Positions 11,934-27,730 of a stretch of 37,198 nt of DNA are shown here, in pieces. The position numbers and the translations under genes were made by a program. The notes beneath the pieces are model-generated. The model searched no databases. It saw nothing but the letters and a program-made list of their open reading frames with translations, and was not told the origin of the DNA. Positions within the stretch are counted from its first letter, which is position 1, and each line of letters begins with the position of its first letter. This DNA is from a virus. Its lineage: Duplodnaviria > Heunggongvirae > Uroviricota > Caudoviricetes. The stretch lies in the IMG/VR virus record IMGVR_UViG_2778261644_000010, one strand, 5' to 3'.

Positions 11934-13961
11934 TCAAAGACTCATGTTAATAGTCATAACCTCCGAATCGTAATCTACTGATTTGATTACTGGGAAGCTA
12001 TGTTCCTGCTCCATGGGCGCAAGCAGAGCACCTGGTTTAAATACAAGATATTTTTTAGAGATTTTATAAGACTCACTGTTTATATGCGGAAATTTTATTT
12101 CATTATACTCGTAACGCTTAGTGTTGGCATGCAGTTGTGGTGGGTTTGCTATATATTTTTTAAAGTTGCCTTTTAATTCATCAATATTGTTATATAGCCT
12201 GTGCCAGGCAATAGGGTTAAATCCATTTTGTGAAATTACGGTTAGCAAATTTATCTCGTTTGAGGCAAAGTAGGCTAGAAGTATTTTCTCATCAATCACT
12301 GGTATTGAATTAAAGGAATATCCAACAAATATCTGGCTGCTGTTAATTATAAATCCAGCAAAATTATAATTCTTATTTTTGTCATAACTCCAACCTAACC
12401 TTTCAAAAATAACCTCTATATTATTTTTTATAAATTCTGTTTTCCTTACGACCTGTTCTCCTGCATGCTGAAGTATTTCAGATGTCCGGTACTTAGATAT
12501 TTCTGAATCAGTCGTAACTATAGACTTTGCTTCACCAATCAAAATCATATCATCTATCCTTGATAATAAATCAATTTCTTCCTCAATGGAGTTTATCTTG
12601 ATTCTTTTAGATACCGCTTTGTCATAGTCAGTTATAAAAGTATTGGTTCCGAGAACACGGTTTATTTTATCTACAACTTTTTTTTCGTAAGTCGTTCCTT
12701 TTCCAGCGAGATTAATATTAAAATGACATGCCCAACGCTCAATAAGCCTAAACATCACCGGCGCATTTAATGCACTAGTCAATAATGCATACTTATTTTT
12801 CTTTAATTTTATCAAAGGTTGACACCAGATATCTCCAGTTGGAGAGGAGTTGAATGTCAAAAAATCAAGAATCTTAGTAACTTTAACCACGCTCATTTCT
12901 GTTGCTTCGCACAAGGCGCGTTCTAATGAACTTGTTTGAACGGTTGGGCAAAACTCCCTTAATTTATTAACATTAAATACACTATCATCTTCTGGATATT
13001 TTTCAGTCTCAATATTTGCGATGAGCATCAATACTCTCATTACATTCAATACTTCTAACAAGCAAAAACCTTTACCAAAATCGTAACGTAACCATTCTTT
13101 GGGAAAATAGTCTTCAAGATGTTTTTCTTCCACTCTCCATTGTGCATTTATTGTTATTAATTCTTTCTTTGCATTTCTAATAGATGCAACCTTTGCCACT
13201 CTTTTTTTATTCTCACGAGTAATAAAAATATATTTATCGCTATCAAAATACTGAGCTATATCAGGTTGGGATGCGATGAGTGTCCGTTGGACAGAAAGTC
13301 TTTCTTTTCGTTGACTGCTGTTATTAAATGCAATTTCAAACGGTGTGTTTGGTTGCTCTATTTTGAATGTTTTATGTTCAGACTCAACTTCGATTAAATT
13401 ATAATCACTCCATAAAACGCATTGCCAAAGATGGATGTAAGTATTATATAACTGAGATAACCAACTTTCTTGTTGGATGAAAGACAATTCATCGATTGGA
13501 TTAGTGGAAATTATTATTTGACTATTTTTTTCTATACCTCTTAGGCATTCTCTTATGGCAAACTGGAAGCCATCGACAGCTCCATGAACGATCTCTCCTA
13601 AGCTTTGTTTATTCCCTAGTTTATTTGCTTCAAGCAATATGCCATTAACATTTGTAGTTGTTGTCTTTTTTGCAAGTTTAAGAGCAACGGCTGATGTTCT
13701 ATTGGAGCTTGCAATATAAGAGATCATTAGTTTTTCATAGTTTGTTTTAGGTGCCCGTCTATACAAATCTGCTAACGCCTCTCTAATATCCTTCAGCACA
13801 CTATAGATGATTATACCCATTGTATAGACTTTTTTATCTCTCGCAGAAGAATTTAATTCAACCTTAGTCCACCCCTCATTCCATTTCTCAAGATTAAAAT
13901 CAGCACGTGTTGGTGACTTGATTTTACCCTTAATAATTTTGCTAATAAATTGATCACTCAT
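11934..13961 (-). CDS. Large orphan protein of unknown function (675 aa), candidate defence gene
   Basis: Long uninterrupted ORF in a visibly AT-rich block, on the strand opposite the flanking phage operons. AAGGA RBS and a perfect TATAAT (minus strand; plus coords 14055-14060) upstream. No P-loop or RT motif seen. The C-terminal third has a possible PD-(D/E)xK-like arrangement (EEIDLLSRIDDMILIGEAKS). Confidence 0.75.
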   Translation of the reverse strand: MSDQFISKIIKGKIKSPTRADFNLEKWNEGWTKVELNSSARDKKVYTMGIIIYSVLKDIREALADLYRRAPKTNYEKLMISYIASSNRTSAVALKLAKKTTTTNVNGILLEANKLGNKQSLGEIVHGAVDGFQFAIRECLRGIEKNSQIIISTNPIDELSFIQQESWLSQLYNTYIHLWQCVLWSDYNLIEVESEHKTFKIEQPNTPFEIAFNNSSQRKERLSVQRTLIASQPDIAQYFDSDKYIFITRENKKRVAKVASIRNAKKELITINAQWRVEEKHLEDYFPKEWLRYDFGKGFCLLEVLNVMRVLMLIANIETEKYPEDDSVFNVNKLREFCPTVQTSSLERALCEATEMSVVKVTKILDFLTFNSSPTGDIWCQPLIKLKKNKYALLTSALNAPVMFRLIERWACHFNINLAGKGTTYEKKVVDKINRVLGTNTFITDYDKAVSKRIKINSIEEEIDLLSRIDDMILIGEAKSIVTTDSEISKYRTSEILQHAGEQVVRKTEFIKNNIEVIFERLGWSYDKNKNYNFAGFIINSSQIFVGYSFNSIPVIDEKILLAYFASNEINLLTVISQNGFNPIAWHRLYNNIDELKGNFKKYIANPPQLHANTKRYEYNEIKFPHINSESYKISKKYLVFKPGALLAPMEQEHSFPVIKSVDYDSEVMTINMSL

Positions 13962-14416: not shown

Positions 14417-14764
14417 ATGGTTCCAATCCAAGAAGTTGATTTCCACACAGATAAAAAAGTTATCTATAAGCTACATATTATTTCTCCAACAGGGGCTGCC
14501 CCCTTTTTTACAGAGGTGTTTGTTTACGACTCTGAATTTAATCCACCTTTTGCATCAATGGTTACTTTTCAGCAGCAGTTTCAGGATTCCAAAGCTGCGT
14601 TTACTCATGTGCTTTATTGGGTGGAAAACTACAGTAAAAAGCAAGGTTATACTGTCAACCGAATCAACAACCCATGTAACTGTGAATTCCTATCACAAGC
14701 GGACCAACAACAATCAGTCCAAAGTGCAGGGCTCAATATTCAAGTTAAAGTAAATGAGGTATAA
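14417..14764 (+). CDS. Hypothetical 115-aa protein, first gene of a two-gene cargo operon
   Basis: ATG preceded by AAGGAGAACC. AT-rich. The overlapping alternative-frame ORF 14382-14753 lacks an RBS. Followed 97 nt downstream by the 282-aa gene on the same strand. Confidence 0.55.
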   Translation: MVPIQEVDFHTDKKVIYKLHIISPTGAAPFFTEVFVYDSEFNPPFASMVTFQQQFQDSKAAFTHVLYWVENYSKKQGYTVNRINNPCNCEFLSQADQQQSVQSAGLNIQVKVNEV

Positions 14765-14860: not shown

Positions 14861-15709
14861 ATGTTCAGCGAATTAGTAAAGGAATTTCATAAAAAAGGAA
14901 TTCCTACAGATAAACCAGATTTTTATGATCATCCAAACTTTATTAAGGAAGAGCAACGAGATCCAAGCTACTTGATTAAGTTTGCAAAATTTGTTGCAGA
15001 AAAGCCATACTCTAATGATTATATAGAAAAGGCAGAGAGTATAATTTTTGATGTGGCAAAGATATTAAGCAAGCAGCTTTTAGATAATGGTCGTCAAGGT
15101 GCTTGTGTGGATATATCAGGAATTCTTGCTCGCATACTGGAACTTAAAGGTATTTGGTGTGCTTGCATTAAAGGCTCTTGCACAATTGATTTCCCCCAAA
15201 AGTCTAATGAAAAAACAACATACTTCTGGTCATCAGATCACGGTGAATTTACTGCTGGACATGCTTGGGTATTTGCTCCACCATTCTCTATAGTGGATAT
15301 CAGCTTGAAGCAACAATTATACACAGGTACTAAAAAAAATTATATCCCTGAAATTATCATGGTAAAAGATGCTGTCAAAACAACATCAACTATAGAGGAC
15401 ATTATCAGCCCTGAAATCAGGATGCTAATGAACGCTCAAGGAATTTCAAAGCATCTTATGCTTAAATATGGCGCATCCGAAATGAATATCATCCAAGAAA
15501 TATTCCCTGCCCAATTGATAGAATTTAATGAAACAAAATTCAAGTTTTCGCCTGTTGCTGTTCATGCGTTTACAGAGTCATTGTCGGGTATGAAAAATAT
15601 GAAGTTTAATGGACTATATCCTTACGATATGTACAGGAAAACCATAAAAGATAAAGTGCCAAATATTGTCTCACTATTAAATCCGGGTGACGCCTACGAT
15701 GCAACCTGA
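14861..15709 (+). CDS. Putative transglutaminase-like / papain-fold cysteine protease or deamidase (282 aa)
   Basis: Motifs in the order and spacing of the transglutaminase-like core: Cys in GACVDISGILARILELKGIW (C82), His in GHAWVF (H134) and Asp in SIVDIS (D146). AT-rich. Confidence 0.6.
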   Translation: MFSELVKEFHKKGIPTDKPDFYDHPNFIKEEQRDPSYLIKFAKFVAEKPYSNDYIEKAESIIFDVAKILSKQLLDNGRQGACVDISGILARILELKGIWCACIKGSCTIDFPQKSNEKTTYFWSSDHGEFTAGHAWVFAPPFSIVDISLKQQLYTGTKKNYIPEIIMVKDAVKTTSTIEDIISPEIRMLMNAQGISKHLMLKYGASEMNIIQEIFPAQLIEFNETKFKFSPVAVHAFTESLSGMKNMKFNGLYPYDMYRKTIKDKVPNIVSLLNPGDAYDAT

Positions 15710-19314: not shown

Positions 19315-19743
19315 ATGGGTTTTCGTAGCGCATCAATTCTTACGTTGATTATTAGTGGGATTATTATCGGGTGCACTGATGCTGTATCGACAAATTATCA
19401 TGACCGTACATCATATTACTCCGATAAAGCAATAGAGACACAGTATGTGAGTTCATCTGAACGTACTTCTGATGTTAGTGAGGATATCCGTCTGTATGCC
19501 CATCAAATCAAGAGCGCCATCGAAAAACAGTTCGGGGATGCGAGTAAGTATTCAGGAAAAGAGTGTACACTGAGAATGCATATGGCCCCGAATGGCCTTC
19601 TACTGGAGGTTAAAAGAGAAAGTGGAGACCTCGATTTATGTCGTGAAGCGATGAATGCGATAAAGAATGCTGATATACCTGCCCCCCCTTCGCCGGAAGT
19701 ATATAAAGTATTTCAAAATGGGGTGCTGGATTTTAAACCCTGA
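19315..19743 (+). CDS. Lipoprotein with TolA C-terminal (domain III)-like region
   Basis: Signal peptide with lipobox IIGC. C-terminal 85 aa (YAHQIKSAIEKQFGDASKYSGKECTLRMHMAPNGLLLEVK...IPAPPSPEVYKVFQNGVLDFKP) closely resembles the recalled C-terminus of E. coli TolA, which ends ...PKPPSQAVYEVFKNAPLDFKP. TATATAAT promoter-like element and GAGGAAAAATG RBS upstream. Confidence 0.7.
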   Translation: MGFRSASILTLIISGIIIGCTDAVSTNYHDRTSYYSDKAIETQYVSSSERTSDVSEDIRLYAHQIKSAIEKQFGDASKYSGKECTLRMHMAPNGLLLEVKRESGDLDLCREAMNAIKNADIPAPPSPEVYKVFQNGVLDFKP

Positions 19744-19893: not shown

Positions 19894-20289
19894 GTGGGAT
19901 TAAAGAAAATCGTTATGTTGACTTTTTGGGTCGGTTTTGTTGCGGGATGCACACCTTTACACCCTTCAGATTGCCACAAAACTACTGCTACAGGTAGTTG
20001 CAGTTCAGGACGCTGGGATGATCAGGATGAATGGGGGGCGCAAGCGCGGGGAATCAGAGCTGCAATTAATGCCAAACTTGATGAGCCGCATAACTGGAAA
20101 GGGAAAAAATGCAGGTTGCATATGGAATTCTCTCAGGATGGCACGGCGTTAAAAATATCTACCAGTAACGGTGATAAAGCCTATTGCGAAGCGATAAAGT
20201 CCGCAGCTCATAAAGCCAAATTTCCGGCCTTCAACAATCCGGAAGTCTACAGAGATTTTCAGAAATCTGGCTTTGACATGCGAGGTTAG
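19894..20289 (+). CDS. Second lipoprotein, divergent paralog of the TolA-domain-III-like lipoprotein
   Basis: GTG start after GAGGAG; lipobox VAGC. Shares the K-x-C-x-L-x-M ... G ... C-x-A-I-K-x-A ... P-x-x-x-x-P-E-V-Y-x-x-F-Q pattern with the upstream lipoprotein. Confidence 0.65.
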   Translation: MGLKKIVMLTFWVGFVAGCTPLHPSDCHKTTATGSCSSGRWDDQDEWGAQARGIRAAINAKLDEPHNWKGKKCRLHMEFSQDGTALKISTSNGDKAYCEAIKSAAHKAKFPAFNNPEVYRDFQKSGFDMRG

Positions 20290-21714: not shown

Positions 21715-21851
21715 AATCTTAACTACAATATGATTCATTTTGATGATTGTTTCATAAGGAACAGTGAAGTAAGATCTAAGAGGAGTTAAATTTTATACAG
21801 TATAATCATAATATTGCAGCAAGGTGGTTATAATTGAAAGAATATTTAGAT

Positions 21852-23309
21852 ATGAATACATCTCATGTAAGAGTTGTTACTCATATGTGTGGGTTCCTGG
21901 TTTGGCTCTATAGTCTTTCAATGTTGCCACCAATGGTTGTAGCATTGTTTTATAAAGAAAAAAGCCTGTTCGTTTTCTTTATAACTTTCGTTATATTTTT
22001 TTGCATTGGTGGCGGAGCGTGGTATACAACTAAGAAATCTGGCATTCAATTACGTACCCGTGATGGGTTTATTATAATTGTAATGTTTTGGATTTTGTTT
22101 TCTGTTATTAGTGCATTCCCTTTATGGATTGACTCAGAACTTAATTTAACGTTCATTGATGCTCTGTTTGAAGGGGTTTCTGGAATAACAACAACAGGAG
22201 CAACTGTAATTGATGATGTTAGTTCATTACCTCGGGCATATTTGTACTATCGGTCACAGTTAAATTTTATAGGTGGTTTAGGAGTTATTGTTCTGGCGGT
22301 TGCTGTATTGCCATTATTGGGTATTGGTGGTGCAAAGCTTTATCAGTCAGAAATGCCGGGGCCATTTAAGGATGACAAACTCACTCCCCGCCTGGCCGAT
22401 ACGTCACGGACACTGTGGATAACTTATTCTTTATTAGGTATTGCTTGTATTGTCTGTTATAGACTTGCAGGAATGTCTTTGTTTGATGCTATTTGTCACG
22501 GGATTTCCACAGTTTCGCTTGGTGGTTTCTCAACTCATAGCGAGAGTATCGGATATTTTAATAACTATTTGGTTGAGCTGGTGGCTGGTTCTTTTTCCCT
22601 GCTATCGGCTTTCAACTTCACTCTTTGGTATATTGTTATTAGCAGGAAAACGATAAAACCTTTAATCAGAGATATTGAACTTCGTTTCTTTCTGTTAATA
22701 GCCTTAGGGGTGATCATTGTTACCTCTTTCCAGGTCTGGCATATAGGTATGTATGACTTGCATGGAAGTTTTATTCATTCGTTTTTTCTTGCCAGCTCCA
22801 TGCTCACTGATAATGGTTTAGCTACGCAGGATTATGTAAGTTGGCCCACGCACACGATAGTGTTTTTGCTGTTGTCAAGTTTCTTTGGGGGATGTATAGG
22901 TTCAACTTGTGGTGGAATTAAGTCACTTCGATTTCTTATACTTTTCAAACAAAGCAAACACGAGATAAATCAGCTTTCTCATCCCAGAGCGTTGTTGAGT
23001 GTAAATGTAGGAGGGAAGATAGTTACAGATCGTGTAATGAGGTCTGTATGGAGTTTCTTTTTTCTTTATACTCTCTTCACGGTGTTTTTTATACTGGTGT
23101 TAAATGGTATGGGATATGATTTTCTTACATCATTTGCAACAGTGGCTGCATGTATTAATAATATGGGATTAGGTTTTGGGGCTACTGCATCGTCATTCGG
23201 AGTGCTTAATGACATTGCAAAATGTTTAATGTGCATAGCTATGATTCTTGGTCGCCTTGAAATTTATCCTGTTATTATATTGTTTTCAGGTTTTTTTTGG
23301 CGCTCCTAA
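21852..23309 (+). CDS. trkG: Potassium uptake protein TrkG (Trk system membrane subunit)
   Basis: 485-aa polytopic membrane protein starting MNTSHVRVVTHMCGFLVWLYSL, recognised as Rac TrkG. Visibly AT-rich relative to the prophage core. Confidence 0.9.
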   Translation: MNTSHVRVVTHMCGFLVWLYSLSMLPPMVVALFYKEKSLFVFFITFVIFFCIGGGAWYTTKKSGIQLRTRDGFIIIVMFWILFSVISAFPLWIDSELNLTFIDALFEGVSGITTTGATVIDDVSSLPRAYLYYRSQLNFIGGLGVIVLAVAVLPLLGIGGAKLYQSEMPGPFKDDKLTPRLADTSRTLWITYSLLGIACIVCYRLAGMSLFDAICHGISTVSLGGFSTHSESIGYFNNYLVELVAGSFSLLSAFNFTLWYIVISRKTIKPLIRDIELRFFLLIALGVIIVTSFQVWHIGMYDLHGSFIHSFFLASSMLTDNGLATQDYVSWPTHTIVFLLLSSFFGGCIGSTCGGIKSLRFLILFKQSKHEINQLSHPRALLSVNVGGKIVTDRVMRSVWSFFFLYTLFTVFFILVLNGMGYDFLTSFATVAACINNMGLGFGATASSFGVLNDIAKCLMCIAMILGRLEIYPVIILFSGFFWRS

Positions 23310-23446
23310 TATATGGCTGATTTATAATTGTGAGTTTAATATTATGTTGACTCACTCATTGATCCAATACCTAACTTTACCAGCAACACCTCCGTCCCCA
23401 GTAGCACTGGCTGCTGGGGTGCGTTTTATTCATAAAGCAAGGCTGT

Positions 23447-24238
23447 ATGAGCGAGAAATTAAAGATAGTCTATCGCCCATTACAAGAATTGTCACCGTAT
23501 GCGCACAACGCCAGGACGCACAGTACTGAGCAGGTGGCACAACTGGTAGAAAGTATTAAGCAATTCGGCTGGACTAATCCGGTGCTGATTGACGAAAAGG
23601 GCGAAATTATTGCGGGTCACGGTCGTGTTATGGCGGCTGAAATGCTCAAAATGGATTCTGTTCCGGTCATTGTTCTGTCTGGCCTGACGGATGAGCAGAA
23701 AAAGGCGTACCGCCTGGCAGATAATCGCCTGCCGATGAATGCTGGCTGGGATGAAGATCTGTTGCGGATGGAGCTGTCGGACCTAATCAATGCTGATTTT
23801 GATGTCTCCCTGACAGGCTTCATCCCGACAGAAATTGATGAACTGTTGACGGATGTTTTGCCCGGTACAGGAAATGAGGAGGAGCCGTATACGACGAAAA
23901 TTGATACGCCTGTTTATGAGCCGTCGGGCGGTAAACCGGATATCAGTGAACTGTACGACGATACGAAAACTCAGGAGCTGATCAGCCGGATACGTTCGGC
24001 GTCCCTTGAGCCTGATATTGAGAAATTCCTCCTGTGTGCGGCAGAACGTCACACGGTGTTTAATTTCAGCAGAATTGCGGACTATTACGCTCACGCCCCC
24101 GCTGAAATTCAGTGTTTTTTCGAGGAGTCGGCGCTGGTGATCATTGATTATCAGCAGGCTATTGAAAATGGATTTGTCCGGATGACGCAGCGCATGGTGG
24201 AGATCATGCATGGTGGTGAGGAGGAGGAATATGCGTGA
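23447..24238 (+). CDS. ParB-like nuclease domain protein
   Basis: N-terminal ParB/Srx-like motif (LIDEKGEIIAGHGRVMAAEML). Located upstream of the terminase genes, where K-12 Rac has only the ynaK/ydaY remnants. Confidence 0.7.
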   Translation: MSEKLKIVYRPLQELSPYAHNARTHSTEQVAQLVESIKQFGWTNPVLIDEKGEIIAGHGRVMAAEMLKMDSVPVIVLSGLTDEQKKAYRLADNRLPMNAGWDEDLLRMELSDLINADFDVSLTGFIPTEIDELLTDVLPGTGNEEEPYTTKIDTPVYEPSGGKPDISELYDDTKTQELISRIRSASLEPDIEKFLLCAAERHTVFNFSRIADYYAHAPAEIQCFFEESALVIIDYQQAIENGFVRMTQRMVEIMHGGEEEEYA

Positions 24239-25163
24239 TGATTTTTGCGCCTTTATTCTGACTCACGGGCGACCGGACAAAGTTCTGACTTACCGGACGT
24301 TGCGTCGTGCTGGCTATACCGGGAAAATTTTTATCGTTGTTGATGATGAAGATAAGACACGGCATCAGTACATGGCTGAATTTGGTGAACAGGTGCTGGT
24401 GTTTTCCAAAGCCGATATCGCCAGTCGTTTTGACGAAGCCGATAATTTCTGTGACCGCCGCTCAATTTTTTACGCCCGTAATGCCTGTTTCGACCAGGCA
24501 AAACTGGTCGGGTGTAAATACTTCATTCAGCTCGATGATGATTATCACGAGTTCCAGTTTCGGGTGGATCGCAACTATGACCAGGCCTATTTTCCGATAA
24601 GGAAACTGGATGCGATCCTTTCTGAAATGCTGGCGTACTACGAATCAATACCTGCTCTTTCCATCGCTATGTCGCAGGGCGGGGATTTTCTTGGTGACAA
24701 CGGCGGCCATGCTTCGTGGGTGAAACGCAAGGCAATGAACAGCTTTATCTGTTCGGTTGATCGACCGTTCTCATTCATGGGGCGCATTAACGAGGATGTG
24801 AATACGTACACGAATCTCGGTCGCTGTGGTGAATTGTTTATGACGATCGGTGCTGTCCAGTTAGGGCAGAAACAGACGCAGAAAAACAGCGGCGGAATGA
24901 CCGAGCTGTATCTGGATTCCGGAACCTACGTTAAAAGTTTTTACTCCGTCATGTATGCGCCGTCGTGCGTAAAAATCTCACTGATGGGTGCCAGTCATAA
25001 ACGCATTCACCATCAGGTCACCTGGAACAACGCTGCAGTAAAAATCCTTCACGAAAAATACAGGAAGAAGACACCCTGCATATCAATGGGGGTGACAAAT
25101 GATTCCGTATTCGAAAGTCGAGTCTCTGGCAGCGTGCCGGATGACTGCACAACAAATCGCTGA
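24231..25163 (+). CDS. Hypothetical protein with possible GT-A-like features (DxD-type motif)
   Basis: Start at the ATG after GAGGAGGAGG (MRDDFCAFILTHGRPDKV). A beta-strand-like N-terminus followed about 95 aa later by KYFIQLDDDYHEF is consistent with, but does not prove, a nucleotide-sugar transferase fold. Confidence 0.5.
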   Translation: MRDDFCAFILTHGRPDKVLTYRTLRRAGYTGKIFIVVDDEDKTRHQYMAEFGEQVLVFSKADIASRFDEADNFCDRRSIFYARNACFDQAKLVGCKYFIQLDDDYHEFQFRVDRNYDQAYFPIRKLDAILSEMLAYYESIPALSIAMSQGGDFLGDNGGHASWVKRKAMNSFICSVDRPFSFMGRINEDVNTYTNLGRCGELFMTIGAVQLGQKQTQKNSGGMTELYLDSGTYVKSFYSVMYAPSCVKISLMGASHKRIHHQVTWNNAAVKILHEKYRKKTPCISMGVTNDSVFESRVSGSVPDDCTTNR

Positions 25164-25350
25164 CGTTCTGGATGTTGATCTGAACCGACTGAAAGAAAAT
25201 CGGGAAGCAATGACAGATTTTTATGCGGCCATCCGTAAGGGCAGAGCGAAAGGTGAAGCCGAGTTACGAGCGGCATTGTTTAAGCTTGCCAGAAAAGGGG
25301 ATGCCTTTGCTCTGCGCGAAATACTCAGGGTGGATAAAAATCAGGACTAA
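25099..25350 (+). CDS. Small hypothetical protein, possible DNA-binding / terminase-associated
   Basis: 83-aa ORF with RBS GGGGGTGA. Helix-rich with basic residues. Directly upstream of the terminase small subunit; start uncertain because it overlaps the preceding gene. Confidence 0.45.
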   Translation: MIPYSKVESLAACRMTAQQIADVLDVDLNRLKENREAMTDFYAAIRKGRAKGEAELRAALFKLARKGDAFALREILRVDKNQD

Positions 25351-25353
25351 CTG

Positions 25354-26448
25354 ATGAGCAGACCGGACTGGGGGGCGTTGCAGCAGGAGTATATTGCTGA
25401 ATACACCCGCTCCGGTATATCTCCGGTGGCATGGTGTGAAGCAAGGGGACTGAATTACGCAACAGCCCGTCGTTACATCAAAAAAACTCCGAAAAATGCG
25501 CAGACAGAAATGTGCAAAACTGCGCAAAAAAGTGCGCAGAAAAAATCTGCGCAGACTGCACAAAAGCGGAACGAAAAATCTCAGGAAAAAAAGCCAGTAT
25601 TCGATGCGGGCCTGAATGAGGGCGACGCGGAGGAATTTTCGTTCTGTCCCGATGAATTCGGCATTTCTGACCAGCAGGCTAAGTTTGCGATGCTTGTTGC
25701 TCAGGGTAAAAAGCCGACAGAGGCGTACCGACTAGCCGGTTATGAGGGGCAAGGTGCGACAGCTAACAGCAACGCCAGTCGTATGCTTAGAAATGCCAGG
25801 GTTTTTCGCGCTATCAGCTACTTCCGCAATCAGTACCAGAAACGCTATACCGCAGACCTGGATTTACTAGTGAGTCAGTTGATGGCTATTGTCCTGGCCG
25901 ACCCCAATCAGCTTGCACAATTTCGCCGTGTTAACTGCCGTTATTGCTGGGGCGAGAATCATCTCTACCAGTGGCGCGATATAGCAGAATTCGACAAGGC
26001 AGCGGCGCAGGCTTCCAGAGATGGCAAACCCGAACCGGAATATGGAGGCCTCGGCTTTGTTGATAACGCCATACCCAATCCGGACTGCCCGAAGTGCTGC
26101 GGTGAGGGAACGGGACAGCTTTATATGGCTGATACCACTCTGCTTGATGGGGATGCGCGGCAATTATATGCAGGGGCAAAATTCGGAAAATTCGGCGTTG
26201 AGATCCTGCTGGAGGATAAGGCTGCCGCCCGGCGTGAATTGTTGCGTTTGTTTTCTGCTGGCGGGGCTTTATGTGCAGATAAGCGGCTACAGGAACTGGA
26301 AATTGAACGGCGCAGAATGGAAAACCAGAAGCTGCGCAAAGAGATCGAAACGGTGGAAGATAATGAACATCCCCAGCCTGTGGCGATCAATATTAATGTG
26401 GTTGATGCCAGAGTAAGGAGTGATGAAGATGATCTCTCCGACGCTTAA
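25354..26448 (+). CDS. Terminase small subunit
   Basis: Contains FAMLVAQGKKPTEAYRLAGY...NASRMLRNARV, typical of the terminase small-subunit family as I recall it. Immediately upstream of the large subunit. Confidence 0.7.
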   Translation: MSRPDWGALQQEYIAEYTRSGISPVAWCEARGLNYATARRYIKKTPKNAQTEMCKTAQKSAQKKSAQTAQKRNEKSQEKKPVFDAGLNEGDAEEFSFCPDEFGISDQQAKFAMLVAQGKKPTEAYRLAGYEGQGATANSNASRMLRNARVFRAISYFRNQYQKRYTADLDLLVSQLMAIVLADPNQLAQFRRVNCRYCWGENHLYQWRDIAEFDKAAAQASRDGKPEPEYGGLGFVDNAIPNPDCPKCCGEGTGQLYMADTTLLDGDARQLYAGAKFGKFGVEILLEDKAAARRELLRLFSAGGALCADKRLQELEIERRRMENQKLRKEIETVEDNEHPQPVAININVVDARVRSDEDDLSDA

Positions 26449-27730
26449 TGTGCCTCAGGCGCGATTTCTTTCAATGCCCCATAAATTTAAAGCCTATATT
26501 GCTGGTTTTGGCTCGGGCAAAACATGGGTTGGGTGTGGCGGCATATGCAAGGGGATTTGGGAGCATCCAGGTATAAATCAGGGATATTTTGCGCCAACGT
26601 ATCCCCAAATTCGCGATATTTTTTACCCTACAGTGGAAGAAGTTGCTGCTGACTGGGGATTGAACGTAAAAATTAATGAGGGAAATAAAGAGGTTCACTT
26701 TTATTACGGACGCCAGTATCGGGGAACCACTATCTGCAGATCGATGGAGAAGCCACAAACGATCGTCGGTTTCAAAATTGGTAATGCGTTGGTGGATGAA
26801 CTGGACATTTTGCCGAAGGAAAAAGCCAGAACGGCGTGGCGCAAGATAATTGCACGTATGCGTTATAAGATTGATGGACTTCGCAACGGTATTGACGTTA
26901 CAACCACGCCGGAAGGATTCAAATTTGTCTACGAGCAGTTTGTTAAAGCCGTGCGTGAAAAAACAGAGCTGGCCTCACTGTATGGTCTGGTGCAGGCATC
27001 TACTTTCGATAATGAAAAGAACCTGCCAGCAGATTACATTCCTTCGCTTCTTGAATCATACCCTCCAGAGCTGATTAAAGCCTATCTTCGAGGACAGTTT
27101 ACTAACCTGACAAGTGGTACTGTTTACCATCAGTTTGACCGGAAACTGAATAATTGCGAAGAAGTGGAGCAGCCAGGGGAGCCGATTTATATTGGGATGG
27201 ATTTTAACGTTGGAAAGATGGCGGGAATCGTCCATGTGCTGCGTTTGGGGCTTCCATGTGCGGTAACTGAAATCATCAATGCCTACGATACGCCGGATAT
27301 GATCCGCATCATTAAAGAACGCTTCTGGCTGTATGATGGGAATGATTACCGGAAAGTGAGGGAAATTTATATTTATCCAGATGCTTCCGGGGATTCCAGA
27401 AAATCAAGTAACGCAAGTACGACGGATATAGCCCAGCTTAAGCAGGCTGGTTTTAACGTTGTGGTGAACAGCTCGAACCCGCCAGTAAAAGATCGCGTTA
27501 ACTCAATGAATGCAATGTTCTGCAATGCCAATGGTGAGCGTCGCTATAAAGTTAATGTGAAGCGTTGCCCGTTATATGCCGAATCTCTGGAGCAACAGGT
27601 CTGGGATGAGAAGGGGGAGCCTGATAAAAAATCTGGCAATGATCACCCGAATGATGCCGGAGGTTATTTCATCGTTAAGCAATTCCCTATTGTCAAACCG
27701 ACCGGAAGAGTCACATCACTTCGGATTTAA
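26420..27730 (+). CDS. Terminase large subunit
   Basis: Walker A-like GFGSGKTW near the N-terminus; acidic nuclease-like C-terminal half. Followed by the portal gene. Confidence 0.8.
   Translation: MMKMISPTLNVPQARFLSMPHKFKAYIAGFGSGKTWVGCGGICKGIWEHPGINQGYFAPTYPQIRDIFYPTVEEVAADWGLNVKINEGNKEVHFYYGRQYRGTTICRSMEKPQTIVGFKIGNALVDELDILPKEKARTAWRKIIARMRYKIDGLRNGIDVTTTPEGFKFVYEQFVKAVREKTELASLYGLVQASTFDNEKNLPADYIPSLLESYPPELIKAYLRGQFTNLTSGTVYHQFDRKLNNCEEVEQPGEPIYIGMDFNVGKMAGIVHVLRLGLPCAVTEIINAYDTPDMIRIIKERFWLYDGNDYRKVREIYIYPDASGDSRKSSNASTTDIAQLKQAGFNVVVNSSNPPVKDRVNSMNAMFCNANGERRYKVNVKRCPLYAESLEQQVWDEKGEPDKKSGNDHPNDAGGYFIVKQFPIVKPTGRVTSLRI

What the first reader, a model, noticed from the sequence alone, without database searches (positions are those of the whole stretch)
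23447..25163. ParB-like nuclease-domain protein paired with a possible GT-A-like protein just upstream of the terminase genes
The 263-aa ParB/Srx-like protein (AGHGRVMAAEML motif) overlaps the start of a 310-aa ORF. That ORF has an N-terminal strand-like AFILTHGRPDKV and, about 95 aa later, KYFIQLDDDYHEF, an arrangement reminiscent of the DxD motif of nucleotide-sugar transferases. If real, this pair could be a DNA modification (anti-restriction) or packaging-associated module. In K-12 Rac this region is degraded to remnants. The transferase interpretation is weak and motif-based.
Basis: inference. Interest (0 to 1): 0.4.

Follow-up and report, generated by a model that had tools for sequence, protein, structure and literature searches.

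The report
ParB-like partner plus DNA-type glycosyltransferase module
Just ahead of its DNA-packaging genes, this Rac-type E. coli prophage carries an intact two-gene unit: a sugar-adding enzyme of the family that decorates phage DNA, and an obligatory ParB-like partner protein. The unit is very widespread, but what it attaches the sugar to is still unknown.

Summary
Window 23447-24238 encodes a 263-aa ParB/Srx-fold protein. Its stop overlaps by 8 nt the start (ATG 24231) of a 310-aa protein ending at 25163.

The two genes form an obligate pair. A homologous partner lies directly upstream of the GT in 86/86, 78/79 and 35/36 related loci. These span many bacterial phyla and a haloarchaeal virus, and most sit just before unrelated terminase types. 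The minimal partner is a conserved peptide motif plus a small helical domain. The ParB domain is an add-on that is also found fused to phage DNA methyltransferases.

No TET/JBP or hydroxymethylase was found in the window or annotated in the complete phage c5 genome, so the usual acceptor (5hmC/5hmU) is missing.

Best reading (0.55): a late-expressed DNA glycosylation module that depends on its partner, with an unknown acceptor. The family is known and already annotated ("GREB1-related protein"). The architecture and the acceptor question are the interesting part.

The parts
23396..23419 (+). Terminator-like hairpin (10-bp stem, T-rich tail) between trkG and the ParB-like gene. It would shield the pair from trkG transcription in the lysogen, and antiterminated late transcription could read through it.
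   Evidence: Pattern scan only; sequence. The function is inferred.
23447..24238 (+). Partner protein, 263 aa, acidic (net charge -25, pI 4.5). This is the full-length form of K-12 'ynaK'.
   Evidence: ORF; ParB_N and phrog_620 matches; PGAP name 'ParB/Srx family N-terminal domain-containing protein'; charge.
23447..23731 (+). ParB/Srx N-terminal domain, residues 1-95. It carries variant nucleotide-pocket motifs: N21/R23 for box I, G57-H58-G59-R60 in place of GERR, and A91-D92-N93 for box III.
23753..23848 (+). Helical linker, residues 103-134. Together with the ParB domain it forms the module found at the N-terminus of phage ParB-DNA methyltransferase fusions.
   Evidence: Residues 10-144 match PADLOC MTase_II positions 13-151 at E 1.7e-38. 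Residues 3-141 match phrog_498 'DNA methyltransferase' at 8.9e-51.
23882..23959 (+). Conserved peptide motif in a disordered acidic stretch, residues 146-171: PYTTKIDTPVYEPSGGKPDISELYD. The family consensus is Y-[TS]-x-K-I-x-x-P-x-Y-x-P-x3-K-P-x3-L-x-D. It probably docks onto the GT; being an acceptor site cannot be excluded.
   Evidence: Invariant Y148 T149 K151 P155 Y157 P159 P164 L169 Y170 D171. Mean pLDDT is below 50 across residues 141-160, with 136-155 flagged. The motif is kept in stand-alone partners and in haloarchaeal, Lactobacillus and Vibrio phages.
23960..24211 (+). Small helical C-terminal domain, residues 172-255 (FLLxAAERHTVFNF..IADYY..FEESALVIIDY). With the motif it makes up the minimal GT partner. 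It has no Pfam family and no solved relative.
   Evidence: No significant PDB or Pfam match. It occurs as a stand-alone 120-156-aa protein next to the GT in at least 8 lineages.
24218..24227 (+). Shine-Dalgarno sequence GAGGAGGAGG for the GT, lying inside the ParB EEEE codons. With the ATGCGTGA stop/start overlap (24231-24238) it indicates translational coupling.
   Evidence: Sequence read directly.
24231..25163 (+). GT-A fold glycosyltransferase of the TAGT family, 310 aa, mildly basic (pI 8.0; family median 9.0). The last 22 or so residues are an Escherichia-specific tail.
24534..24542 (+). Codons for D102-D103-D104, the DxD metal and nucleotide-sugar motif at the end of a beta-strand.
   Evidence: All three invariant in A1; D102 and D104 invariant and D103 nearly so in A3. 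Strand 97-102 in the model.
24789..24809 (+). Codons for N187-E188-D189-V190-N191-T192-Y193, the second acidic motif. [quoted passage not shown]
   Evidence: Invariant N187 D189 V190 Y193. The motif R...DDD...EDY/F is described in bioRxiv 10.1101/2023.12.21.572611. The mapping between the two is inferred.
25099..25350 (+). Small ORF of 83 aa (PGAP aa) directly after the GT. It resembles part of a small-terminase protein and is conserved in this position in 11 lineages.
   Evidence: phrog_309 4.3e-23; cluster 4; PGAP CDS.
25354..26448 (+). Terminase small subunit (context).
   Evidence: Terminase_2 and phrog_51.
26420..27730 (+). Terminase large subunit, T4-like Terminase_6N/6C (context).
   Evidence: The same TerL cluster lies about 1.3 kb downstream of the GT in 37 of 58 lineages that have enough flank.

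Best explanation
The segment encodes a translationally coupled two-protein unit.

The catalytic subunit is a basic GT-A glycosyltransferase of the TAGT family. Its partner is an acidic protein built from four parts: (i) a ParB/Srx nucleotide-pocket domain, (ii) a helical linker, (iii) a conserved disordered peptide motif, and (iv) a small helical C-terminal domain. Parts (i) and (ii) are the same module that phage DNA methyltransferases carry at their N-terminus.

Proposed mechanism: the pair is transcribed with the late genes, after replication and just before or during packaging. The motif and C-domain bind the GT. The ParB-type domain keeps or activates the enzyme on double-stranded phage DNA, as the ParB-like activator does for the phage thymine dioxygenase 5mYOX176. 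The GT then transfers a sugar from a nucleotide-sugar to the DNA, which is packaged in modified form and is protected from host nucleases on the next infection.

Shown here: the folds, the family membership, the intact catalytic motifs, the obligate pairing, the coupling, and the link to packaging or replication genes.

Inferred: that DNA is the acceptor, which group on the DNA is used, which sugar is used, that the two proteins form a complex, and the protective effect.
For: 1. Family. PF20691 scores 120 bits, the fold is GT-A, and the DDD and NEDVxxY motifs are invariant.

2. Known members act on DNA. These are the T2/T6 beta-glucosyl-HMC-alpha-GT (PMC13216743, PMC13390438), the metavirome GT-A enzymes that put sugars on 5hmC, and their structural relative JGT (bioRxiv 10.1101/2023.12.21.572611).

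3. Obligate pairing. A homologous partner lies directly upstream, usually overlapping the GT start, in 86/86 loci. The same holds in 78/79 loci whose GT is only 41-47% identical to a distant family member, in 35/36 genomes of many phyla, and in Lactobacillus, Vibrio and haloarchaeal viruses.

4. The ParB domain plus linker is the N-terminal module of DNA methyltransferases.

5. Precedent. A ParB-like protein with the same overall plan (nucleotide-binding domain plus C-terminal domain, no DNA-binding domain) is required by a phage DNA dioxygenase on dsDNA and is specific to its cognate enzyme (PMC13229309).

6. Context is always DNA-handling. With the ParB domain, the pair sits directly before four unrelated terminase types: T4-like, HK97-like, lambda GpA and Terminase_4. 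Without it, the pair sits in replication modules: DnaB, primase/helicase, DUF1376, and a beta-clamp gene two genes downstream.

7. Fusions and neighbours that would tailor an attached sugar: class I methyltransferase, sulfotransferase, a second TAGT domain, P-loop kinase, epimerase, UDP-galactopyranose mutase.

8. Charge. The GT is basic and the partner acidic.

9. A terminator-like hairpin upstream and a strong SD with stop/start overlap fit late, coupled expression.
Against: - The known acceptors of this family are hydroxyl groups on 5hmC, 5hmU or a sugar already on DNA. No TET/JBP, thymidylate-synthase-like hydroxymethylase or DNA methyltransferase was seen in the window, in a relative's PGAP annotation, or among the annotated genes of the complete 31.8-kb genome of phage c5. 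No third gene is conserved across 67 lineages.
- GREB1, a eukaryotic relative, glycosylates a protein (PMC7968844).
- The partner is strongly acidic and has no recognisable DNA-binding domain.
- The ParB pocket motif is altered (GHGR instead of GERR).
- Stand-alone partners lack the ParB domain altogether, so that domain is not essential to the pairing.
- No experiment on any member of this ParB-linked subfamily was found.
Confidence: 0.55

Rival explanations
1. The GT glycosylates a protein rather than DNA. Candidates are the conserved hydroxyl-rich motif of its own partner (Y-T-x-K-I-x-x-P-x-Y-x-P), a packaging protein such as the terminase or portal, or a host protein. The partner would then be a substrate or an adaptor.
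For: - GREB1, of the same superfamily, O-GlcNAcylates ER-alpha.
- The system is self-contained, two genes only, across bacteria and archaea, so the acceptor must be universal or supplied by the pair itself.
- The motif is invariant, disordered and rich in Tyr/Thr.
- GT2 genes lie next to the capsid gene in one relative.
Against: - Every biochemically defined prokaryotic or viral member of the family acts on DNA.
- The ParB plus linker module is otherwise attached to DNA methyltransferases.
- ParB-less versions sit in replication modules, not structural ones.
- The motif's Tyr157 and Thr149 are not kept in one of the tandem partners of L117.
Confidence: 0.2
2. The acceptor is another hydroxyl-bearing nucleic-acid or nucleotide species present in all hosts. 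Examples are a modified tRNA nucleoside such as queuosine, a DNA end made by the terminase, or a free nucleotide. The ParB/Srx domain would supply nucleotide binding or phosphotransfer chemistry.
For: - No hydroxymethyl-pyrimidine source is present.
- Some relatives fuse a P-loop kinase to the GT and add a radical SAM enzyme.
- The module sits next to the enzyme that makes DNA ends.
Against: - Nothing in the data points to RNA.
- The ParB domain is dispensable in several lineages.
- The pair occurs with cos-type, headful-type and lambda-type terminases, and also in replication modules far from any terminase.
Confidence: 0.1
3. The two genes are functionally unrelated neighbours. The ParB-like protein would be a nuclease or pac/cos-site accessory factor for packaging. 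The GT would be a cargo gene that alters a host surface glycan, as TarP or seroconversion enzymes do.
For: - ParB-like 'nuclease' genes often sit beside terminase genes.
- trkG, a clear cargo gene, lies immediately upstream.
Against: - The stop/start overlap and pairing are kept in about 200 loci across phyla, even where terminases differ or are absent.
- Partners without any ParB domain still pair with the GT, and tandem partner-GT pairs exist.
- The pair is found in virulent phages (c5, and the 191-kb Vibrio phages), where lysogenic conversion makes no sense.
- A terminator-like hairpin separates it from trkG.
Confidence: 0.05

Closest known systems
T2/T6 beta-glucosyl-HMC-alpha-glucosyltransferase (Pfam PF20691, TAGT)
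   Same: Same Pfam family and GT-A fold. It is a phage enzyme that transfers sugar to a DNA-linked acceptor after replication. PHROG 842, which the window protein matches at 6e-104, carries this name.
   Different: - The T-even enzyme adds a second glucose to alpha-glucosyl-5hmC, which those phages make through dCMP hydroxymethylase and alpha-GT. None of that exists here.
- The T-even enzyme is too distant to be found by tblastn.
- It is not reported to have a ParB-like partner.
Metavirome GT-A glycosyltransferases acting on 5hmC made by C5-MT plus TET (5mYOX) (bioRxiv 10.1101/2023.12.21.572611; PMC8256090)
   Same: GT-A fold with R...DDD...ED(Y/F)-type motifs. They act on DNA after replication. 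ParB-like and terminase genes are listed among their neighbours.
   Different: Those enzymes work downstream of a methyltransferase and a dioxygenase encoded beside them, and were active without a partner protein. Here there is no MT or 5mYOX, and the partner is invariably present.
ParB-dependent phage thymine dioxygenase pair 5mYOX176/ParB176 (PMC13229309)
   Same: A ParB-like protein with a nucleotide-binding domain and a C-terminal domain but no DNA-binding domain. It is encoded next to a DNA-modifying enzyme, is needed for that enzyme on dsDNA, and is specific to its cognate enzyme.
   Different: The enzyme is a dioxygenase, not a glycosyltransferase. No stable complex was trapped there. 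Here a conserved docking-type motif and the stop/start overlap suggest a tight pair.
Phage ParB-DNA methyltransferase fusions (phrog_498; PADLOC MTase_II)
   Same: Residues 3-144 of the window's partner are homologous to their N-terminal module (E 8.9e-51 and 1.7e-38). In both cases a ParB-type module is attached to a DNA-modifying activity.
   Different: In the fusions the catalytic domain is joined in the same chain and is a methyltransferase. Here the catalytic protein is separate and is attached, presumably, through the motif and C-domain.
Kinetoplastid base-J glucosyltransferase (JGT) and vertebrate GREB1
   Same: Same GT-A superfamily, according to the literature and to the NCBI/UniRef name 'GREB1-related protein'.
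   Different: JGT needs 5hmU made by JBP. GREB1 glycosylates a protein. Both are eukaryotic and lack a ParB partner. The relationship was not tested by direct comparison here.
Phage Mu Mom (works alike, not related)
   Same: A late-expressed modification of phage DNA made shortly before packaging that protects against restriction. This comparison rests on my own knowledge.
   Different: Different fold and chemistry (acetamido group on adenine). No partner of ParB type.

Membership tests
TAGT / GT-A DNA glycosyltransferases (PF20691) | Sequence match to the family model above its curated cut-off | tested here: met
   120.3 bits against a cut-off of 27.5, E 1.4e-34, model positions 4-205 of 205. 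phrog_842 at 6e-104. Foldseek top hits are phage TAGT proteins, E 1.3e-21.
TAGT / GT-A DNA glycosyltransferases (PF20691) | GT-A Rossmann-like fold with a DxD motif after a beta-strand | tested here: met
TAGT / GT-A DNA glycosyltransferases (PF20691) | [quoted passage not shown] | tested here: inconclusive
   R14, D102-104 and E188-D189...Y193 are invariant or nearly so. This fits the published pattern, but no direct alignment with the published enzymes could be made.
TAGT / GT-A DNA glycosyltransferases (PF20691) | Genomic association with a source of hydroxymethyl-pyrimidine (TET/JBP-type dioxygenase or thymidylate-synthase-like hydroxymethylase) | tested here: not met
   None in the window ORFs scanned or in the PGAP annotation of a relative. 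None annotated in the complete phage c5 genome. No conserved third gene in 67 lineages. Not among the commonest Pfam families of 150 neighbour clusters; rare single cases cannot be excluded.
TAGT / GT-A DNA glycosyltransferases (PF20691) | Transfer of a sugar to a DNA-linked acceptor | not testable with these tools
   Needs mass spectrometry of DNA or an enzyme assay.
ParB/Srx superfamily (PF02195) | ParB N-terminal domain fold | tested here: met
Canonical CTP-dependent ParB clamps (chromosome/plasmid partition) | Conserved CTP-binding and hydrolysis residues (box I QPR, box II GERR, box III ENxxR) | tested here: inconclusive
   The aligned positions read N21-A-R23, G57-H58-G59-R60 and A91-D92-N93. 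One arginine and the asparagine are kept; the glutamate and second arginine are replaced. Nucleotide binding is possible but unproven.
Canonical CTP-dependent ParB clamps (chromosome/plasmid partition) | Central helix-turn-helix DNA-binding domain, parS site and a ParA partner | tested here: not met
   TIGR00180 scores 38 bits against a cut-off of 58. After residue 95 the model shows an acidic helical linker and a disordered motif, with no HTH match. No parA gene is in the prophage.
ParB-like activators of phage DNA-modifying enzymes (5mYOX-associated ParB) | Nucleotide-binding domain plus C-terminal domain without a DNA-binding domain, encoded beside its cognate enzyme | tested here: met
   Architecture. 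Adjacency in about 200 loci. Description of the family in PMC13229309.
ParB-like activators of phage DNA-modifying enzymes (5mYOX-associated ParB) | Sequence homology to ParB176-type proteins, and activation of the enzyme on dsDNA | not tested
   No sequences are held for that paper. Activation needs an experiment.

The most novel reading that the evidence does not exclude
The ParB-partnered TAGT pair is a self-sufficient DNA glycosylation system that needs no hydroxymethylated pyrimidine. It would put a sugar directly on a canonical DNA component: an exocyclic amine, another base position, or a DNA end. The ParB-type domain, or in ParB-less versions the replisome, would hold the enzyme on DNA through a dedicated adaptor consisting of the motif and C-domain. 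That would be a new acceptor chemistry for DNA glycosylation. It would be present in about a third of complete E. coli genomes and in phages of many bacterial phyla and of haloarchaea.
Probability: 0.25. Interest if true: 0.85.

Novelty: new variant of a known kind. Interest (0 to 1): 0.5.

Why it matters
Phage DNA glycosylation is known only where the phage first makes 5hmC, 5hmU or 5-hydroxycytosine. This module belongs to the same enzyme family but comes with no such supply. It is nevertheless among the best conserved phage proteins seen here: 50-60% identity between E. coli prophages and phages of Bacteroidota, Desulfovibrionaceae, Saccharibacteria and others, and 43% to a haloarchaeal virus.

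Either these phages carry an unrecognised DNA modification, or a 'DNA-type' glycosyltransferase has a different target. The first would affect restriction, CRISPR and type IV defence outcomes, sequencing signals, and the use of temperate coliphages. Both outcomes would be informative.

The question is directly testable in E. coli, because inducible full-length Rac-type prophages and isolated phages with this pair exist. It would also extend the recent finding that ParB-like proteins act as cofactors of DNA-modifying enzymes from a dioxygenase to a glycosyltransferase. Finally, it would define a new adaptor domain.

Tried and rejected
- **Solved relatives of the GT by sequence.** None found; only chance hits at E about 1.
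- **A hidden dioxygenase or hydroxymethylase.** Pfam on the unannotated window ORFs and on c5 hypothetical proteins found nothing. The bulk Pfam scan of 150 neighbour clusters lists only the 25 commonest families, so rare TET/JBP neighbours cannot be excluded.
- **Defence-system membership.** No PADLOC match for the GT. The ParB hit is only the shared N-terminal module of MTase_II.
- **NCBIfam.** No model for the GT. ParB models score far below their cut-offs, so this is not a partition ParB or Noc.
- **Iyer et al. 2013 (NAR), which defined TAGT.** Not held in the library. Its view on ParB is cited only second-hand through PMC8256090.
- **Experimental work on ynaK, this GT, or ParB plus GT pairs without 5mYOX.** Literature searches found none. 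The only hit is an overexpression screen in which the truncated K-12 ynaK raised several MICs.
- **afdb50 fold search.** Not available.
- **The 317-aa start at 24210.** Rejected in favour of 24231.
- **The GT model.** Its C-terminal half (residues about 150-310) is low confidence, so no inference was drawn from it.
Full report
**1. What is there**

The window is a full-length Rac-type prophage of E. coli. A near-identical region in strain E7 is annotated as intR, xisR, recET, racR, ydaS-V, a Q-like gene, lysis genes, trkG, then 'ParB/Srx family N-terminal domain-containing protein', 'GREB1-related protein', a small ORF, the small and large terminase subunits, portal, head and tail genes.

In the window the two genes are 23447-24238 (263 aa) and 24231-25163 (310 aa), both on the + strand. 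The second gene could also start at ATG 24210, but four things favour 24231:
- all homologues begin MRDDFCAFILTHGRP;
- PGAP aa;
- GAGGAGGAGG lies at 24218-24227;
- the start overlaps the ParB stop as ATGCGTGA.

A terminator-like hairpin (23396-23419) separates the pair from trkG.

The segment is present in 1610 of 5426 complete E. coli genomes, in 867 of them over at least 80% of its length. It is also present in 10 phage records. In K-12 MG1655, ynaK is an 87-aa stump followed by ydaY, and everything from the GT to the head genes is deleted.

**2. The glycosyltransferase**

- **Family.** The protein matches Pfam PF20691, TET-associated glycosyltransferase, at E 1.4e-34 across the whole model. 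It matches PHROG 842 at 6e-104.
- **Motifs.** These are invariant in homologues at about 60% identity and remain invariant or nearly so at about 40%. Also conserved are R14, QGGD, NEDVNTY, TQxxxGGMT and RxHH.
- **Size of the family.** More than 8000 word-sharing relatives were found. There are 1500 clusters at 50% identity in the representative library, 717 of them below 1e-30.
- **Known members.** PF20691 includes the T2/T6 beta-glucosyl-HMC-alpha-glucosyltransferase, which adds the second glucose on glucosyl-5hmC DNA (PMC13216743, PMC13390438). Metavirome GT-A enzymes with R...DDD...ED(Y/F) motifs, structurally closest to the base-J glucosyltransferase, put various sugars on 5hmC in DNA (bioRxiv 10.1101/2023.12.21.572611). 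The vertebrate relative GREB1 O-GlcNAcylates a protein (PMC7968844).

**3. The partner**

- **Shared module (residues 3-144).** The domain plus a helical linker is homologous to the N-terminal module of phage ParB-DNA methyltransferase fusions: phrog_498 at 8.9e-51 and PADLOC MTase_II at 1.7e-38.
- **Motif (residues 146-171).** A disordered acidic stretch carries the invariant motif PYTxKIDTPVYEPSxxxPxxxELYD.
- **C-domain (residues 172-255).** A helical domain follows. It has no Pfam family and no solved relative.
- **Charge.** The protein has a net charge of -25. Across lineages the partner is acidic (median pI 4.8) and the GT basic (median pI 9.0).
- **Not a partition ParB.** TIGR00180 is far below its cut-off, there is no HTH domain, and there is no parA gene.

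**4. The two genes are one unit**

A homologue of the partner lies directly upstream of the GT, on the same strand, usually overlapping its start. Counts were as follows.

| Set of loci | Partner directly upstream |
|---|---|
| First set of related loci | 86 of 86 |
| Viral contigs whose GT is only 41-47% identical to a distant family member (the exception is cut by the contig end) | 78 of 79 |
| Species-representative genomes | 35 of 36 |

The genome set covers Enterobacterales, Bacteroidota, Chlorobi, Desulfovibrionaceae, Saccharibacteria, Firmicutes, Planctomycetes, Actinobacteria and others. The pair also occurs in Lactobacillus phages phi jlb1 and c5, in 191-kb Vibrio phages and in the haloarchaeal virus HHTV-2.

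After collapsing to 67 lineages, the only widely conserved neighbours are the partner (65 lineages), a T4-like large terminase (42), a small ORF just downstream, and the small terminase.

In at least eight lineages the partner is only 120-156 aa. It then consists of the motif plus the C-domain, without the ParB domain. One contig has two tandem partner-GT pairs, and another has partner-GT-partner. The motif plus C-domain is therefore the core partner, and the ParB module is an addition.

**5. Context**

With the ParB domain, the pair sits immediately before the terminase genes, whatever their type:
- T4-like, in the window and in 37 of 58 lineages with enough flank;
- HK97-type TerL with Terminase_4;
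- lambda GpA-type;
- in phage c5, the pair is the first two genes after cos.

Without the ParB domain, the pair sits in replication modules:
- next to DnaB helicases and an N6/N4 methyltransferase;
- next to a DUF1376 replication-associated protein;
- next to primase and helicases in Vibrio phage pv27;
- two genes upstream of a DNA polymerase III beta-clamp gene.

Some relatives fuse the GT to another domain: a class I SAM methyltransferase, a carbohydrate sulfotransferase, a second TAGT domain or a P-loop kinase. The sulfotransferase and kinase fusions whose contigs were examined (P0165, P0147) are still preceded by a ParB-domain gene; the contexts of the other fusions were not looked up. Some neighbours are sugar-nucleotide enzymes: epimerase, 4,6-dehydratase, UDP-galactopyranose mutase, and a radical SAM enzyme. 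These would tailor an attached sugar.

**6. What is missing**

Known TAGT-type enzymes need a hydroxyl handle on DNA: 5hmC, 5hmU, or a sugar already in place. I found no TET/JBP dioxygenase, hydroxymethylase or DNA methyltransferase in any of these places:
- the window's unannotated ORFs;
- the annotation of a related prophage;
- the annotation of the complete 31.8-kb genome of phage c5;
- the conserved neighbours.

The published GT survey noted that about 65% of GT contigs lack such neighbours and set them aside. The pair is thus self-contained in hosts as different as E. coli, Lactobacillus and Haloarcula. The acceptor must be universal or provided by the pair itself.

**7. Most likely mechanism**

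The closest functional precedent is the ParB-dependent phage thymine dioxygenase. There, a ParB-like protein has a nucleotide-binding domain and a C-terminal domain but no DNA-binding domain. It is encoded beside the enzyme, is required for activity on dsDNA, and is specific for its cognate enzyme. Structure predictions place the enzyme between the two ParB domains (PMC13229309).

By analogy, and given the DNA-methyltransferase kinship of the ParB module, I propose the following. The partner binds the GT through its motif and C-domain. It holds or activates the GT on phage DNA late in infection. The DNA is glycosylated before it is packaged, and this gives protection against host nucleases. 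T4 alpha-GT, thought to work in association with the replisome, and Mu Mom (my own knowledge) are functional parallels.

I give this reading 0.55. The main alternatives are:
- a protein target, including the partner's own Tyr/Thr-rich motif (0.2);
- another nucleic-acid or nucleotide acceptor such as a tRNA nucleoside or a DNA end (0.1);
- unrelated neighbours (0.05), which the pairing data make unlikely.

**8. Novelty and score**

The family is known. This exact protein is already named 'GREB1-related protein' or 'TET-associated glycosyltransferase domain-containing protein' in public databases. An association of ParB with phage DNA-modification genes has been noted before.

As far as the searchable literature shows, three points are not described:
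- the strict one-to-one pairing;
- the motif plus C-domain adaptor as its core;
- the fact that this large, highly conserved clade operates without any hydroxymethyl-pyrimidine source.

I therefore rate it a new variant of a known kind, with interest 0.5. The most novel reading not excluded is direct glycosylation of unmodified DNA (probability about 0.25).

Noticed in passing
window 11934-13961 (- strand), 14417-14764 and 14861-15709 (+): A 675-aa ORF on the opposite strand lies in a low-GC island (33-39% GC against about 45-50% elsewhere). Beside it are ORFs of 115 and 282 aa. None has a Pfam or PADLOC match. A related prophage has different genes at this position, so this looks like variable cargo, possibly a defence or exclusion gene.
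   Followed up: partly
window 21834-23309 and 23396-23419: The potassium transporter gene trkG sits as cargo between the lysis cassette and the packaging genes. It is followed by a strong terminator-like hairpin 27 bp before the ParB-like gene.
   Followed up: partly
window 19315-19743 and 19894-20289: Two adjacent ORFs each carry a TolA C-terminal domain (E 2.4e-23 and 1.3e-14), just upstream of the holin and lysozyme genes. In a related prophage one copy is annotated as a tolA pseudogene fragment.
   Followed up: no
window 25099-25350: A small ORF between the GT and the 364-aa small terminase resembles the middle of a small-terminase family (phrog_309, 4.3e-23). It recurs directly after the GT in 11 lineages, and other lineages have a different 85-134-aa ORF in the same place. 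It may be a third member of the unit or a split part of the terminase.
   Followed up: partly
window 25097-25163 (GT residues about 289-310): The Escherichia and Shigella version of the GT has a tail of about 22 residues that is absent from all other homologues (typical length 283-295 aa). This tail overlaps the start of the next ORF.
   Followed up: no
L117 6409-10505: A metagenomic phage contig has two tandem partner-GT pairs, both partners lacking the ParB domain. They are followed by an unknown 172-aa ORF and a DNA polymerase III beta-clamp gene. This suggests stepwise addition of two sugars and recruitment through the replisome.
   Followed up: partly
L207 80-5806; also proteins P0147, P0170, P0180: In some phages the GT carries an N-terminal P-loop kinase-like domain (MIYLIVGxSCAGKS). 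In L207 the order is radical SAM enzyme, ParB-like gene, kinase-GT fusion, then a lambda-type terminase, which points to a more elaborate modification pathway.
   Followed up: partly
K-12 MG1655 ynaK (L169 2878-3141): The 87-aa K-12 remnant of the ParB-like gene keeps only most of the ParB domain. A 2026 overexpression screen reported that it raises the MIC of six antibiotics (PMC12924614). The full-length context described here may help interpret that result.
   Followed up: no
E. coli genomes NZ_LR134315.1 and NZ_CP073974.1 (hits H2, H14): In some strains the region is interrupted by insertion sequences (ISKpn26-type IS5, IS3). About 740 of the 1610 genomes with a match hold less than 80% of the segment. 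The module therefore decays often in resident prophages.
   Followed up: no
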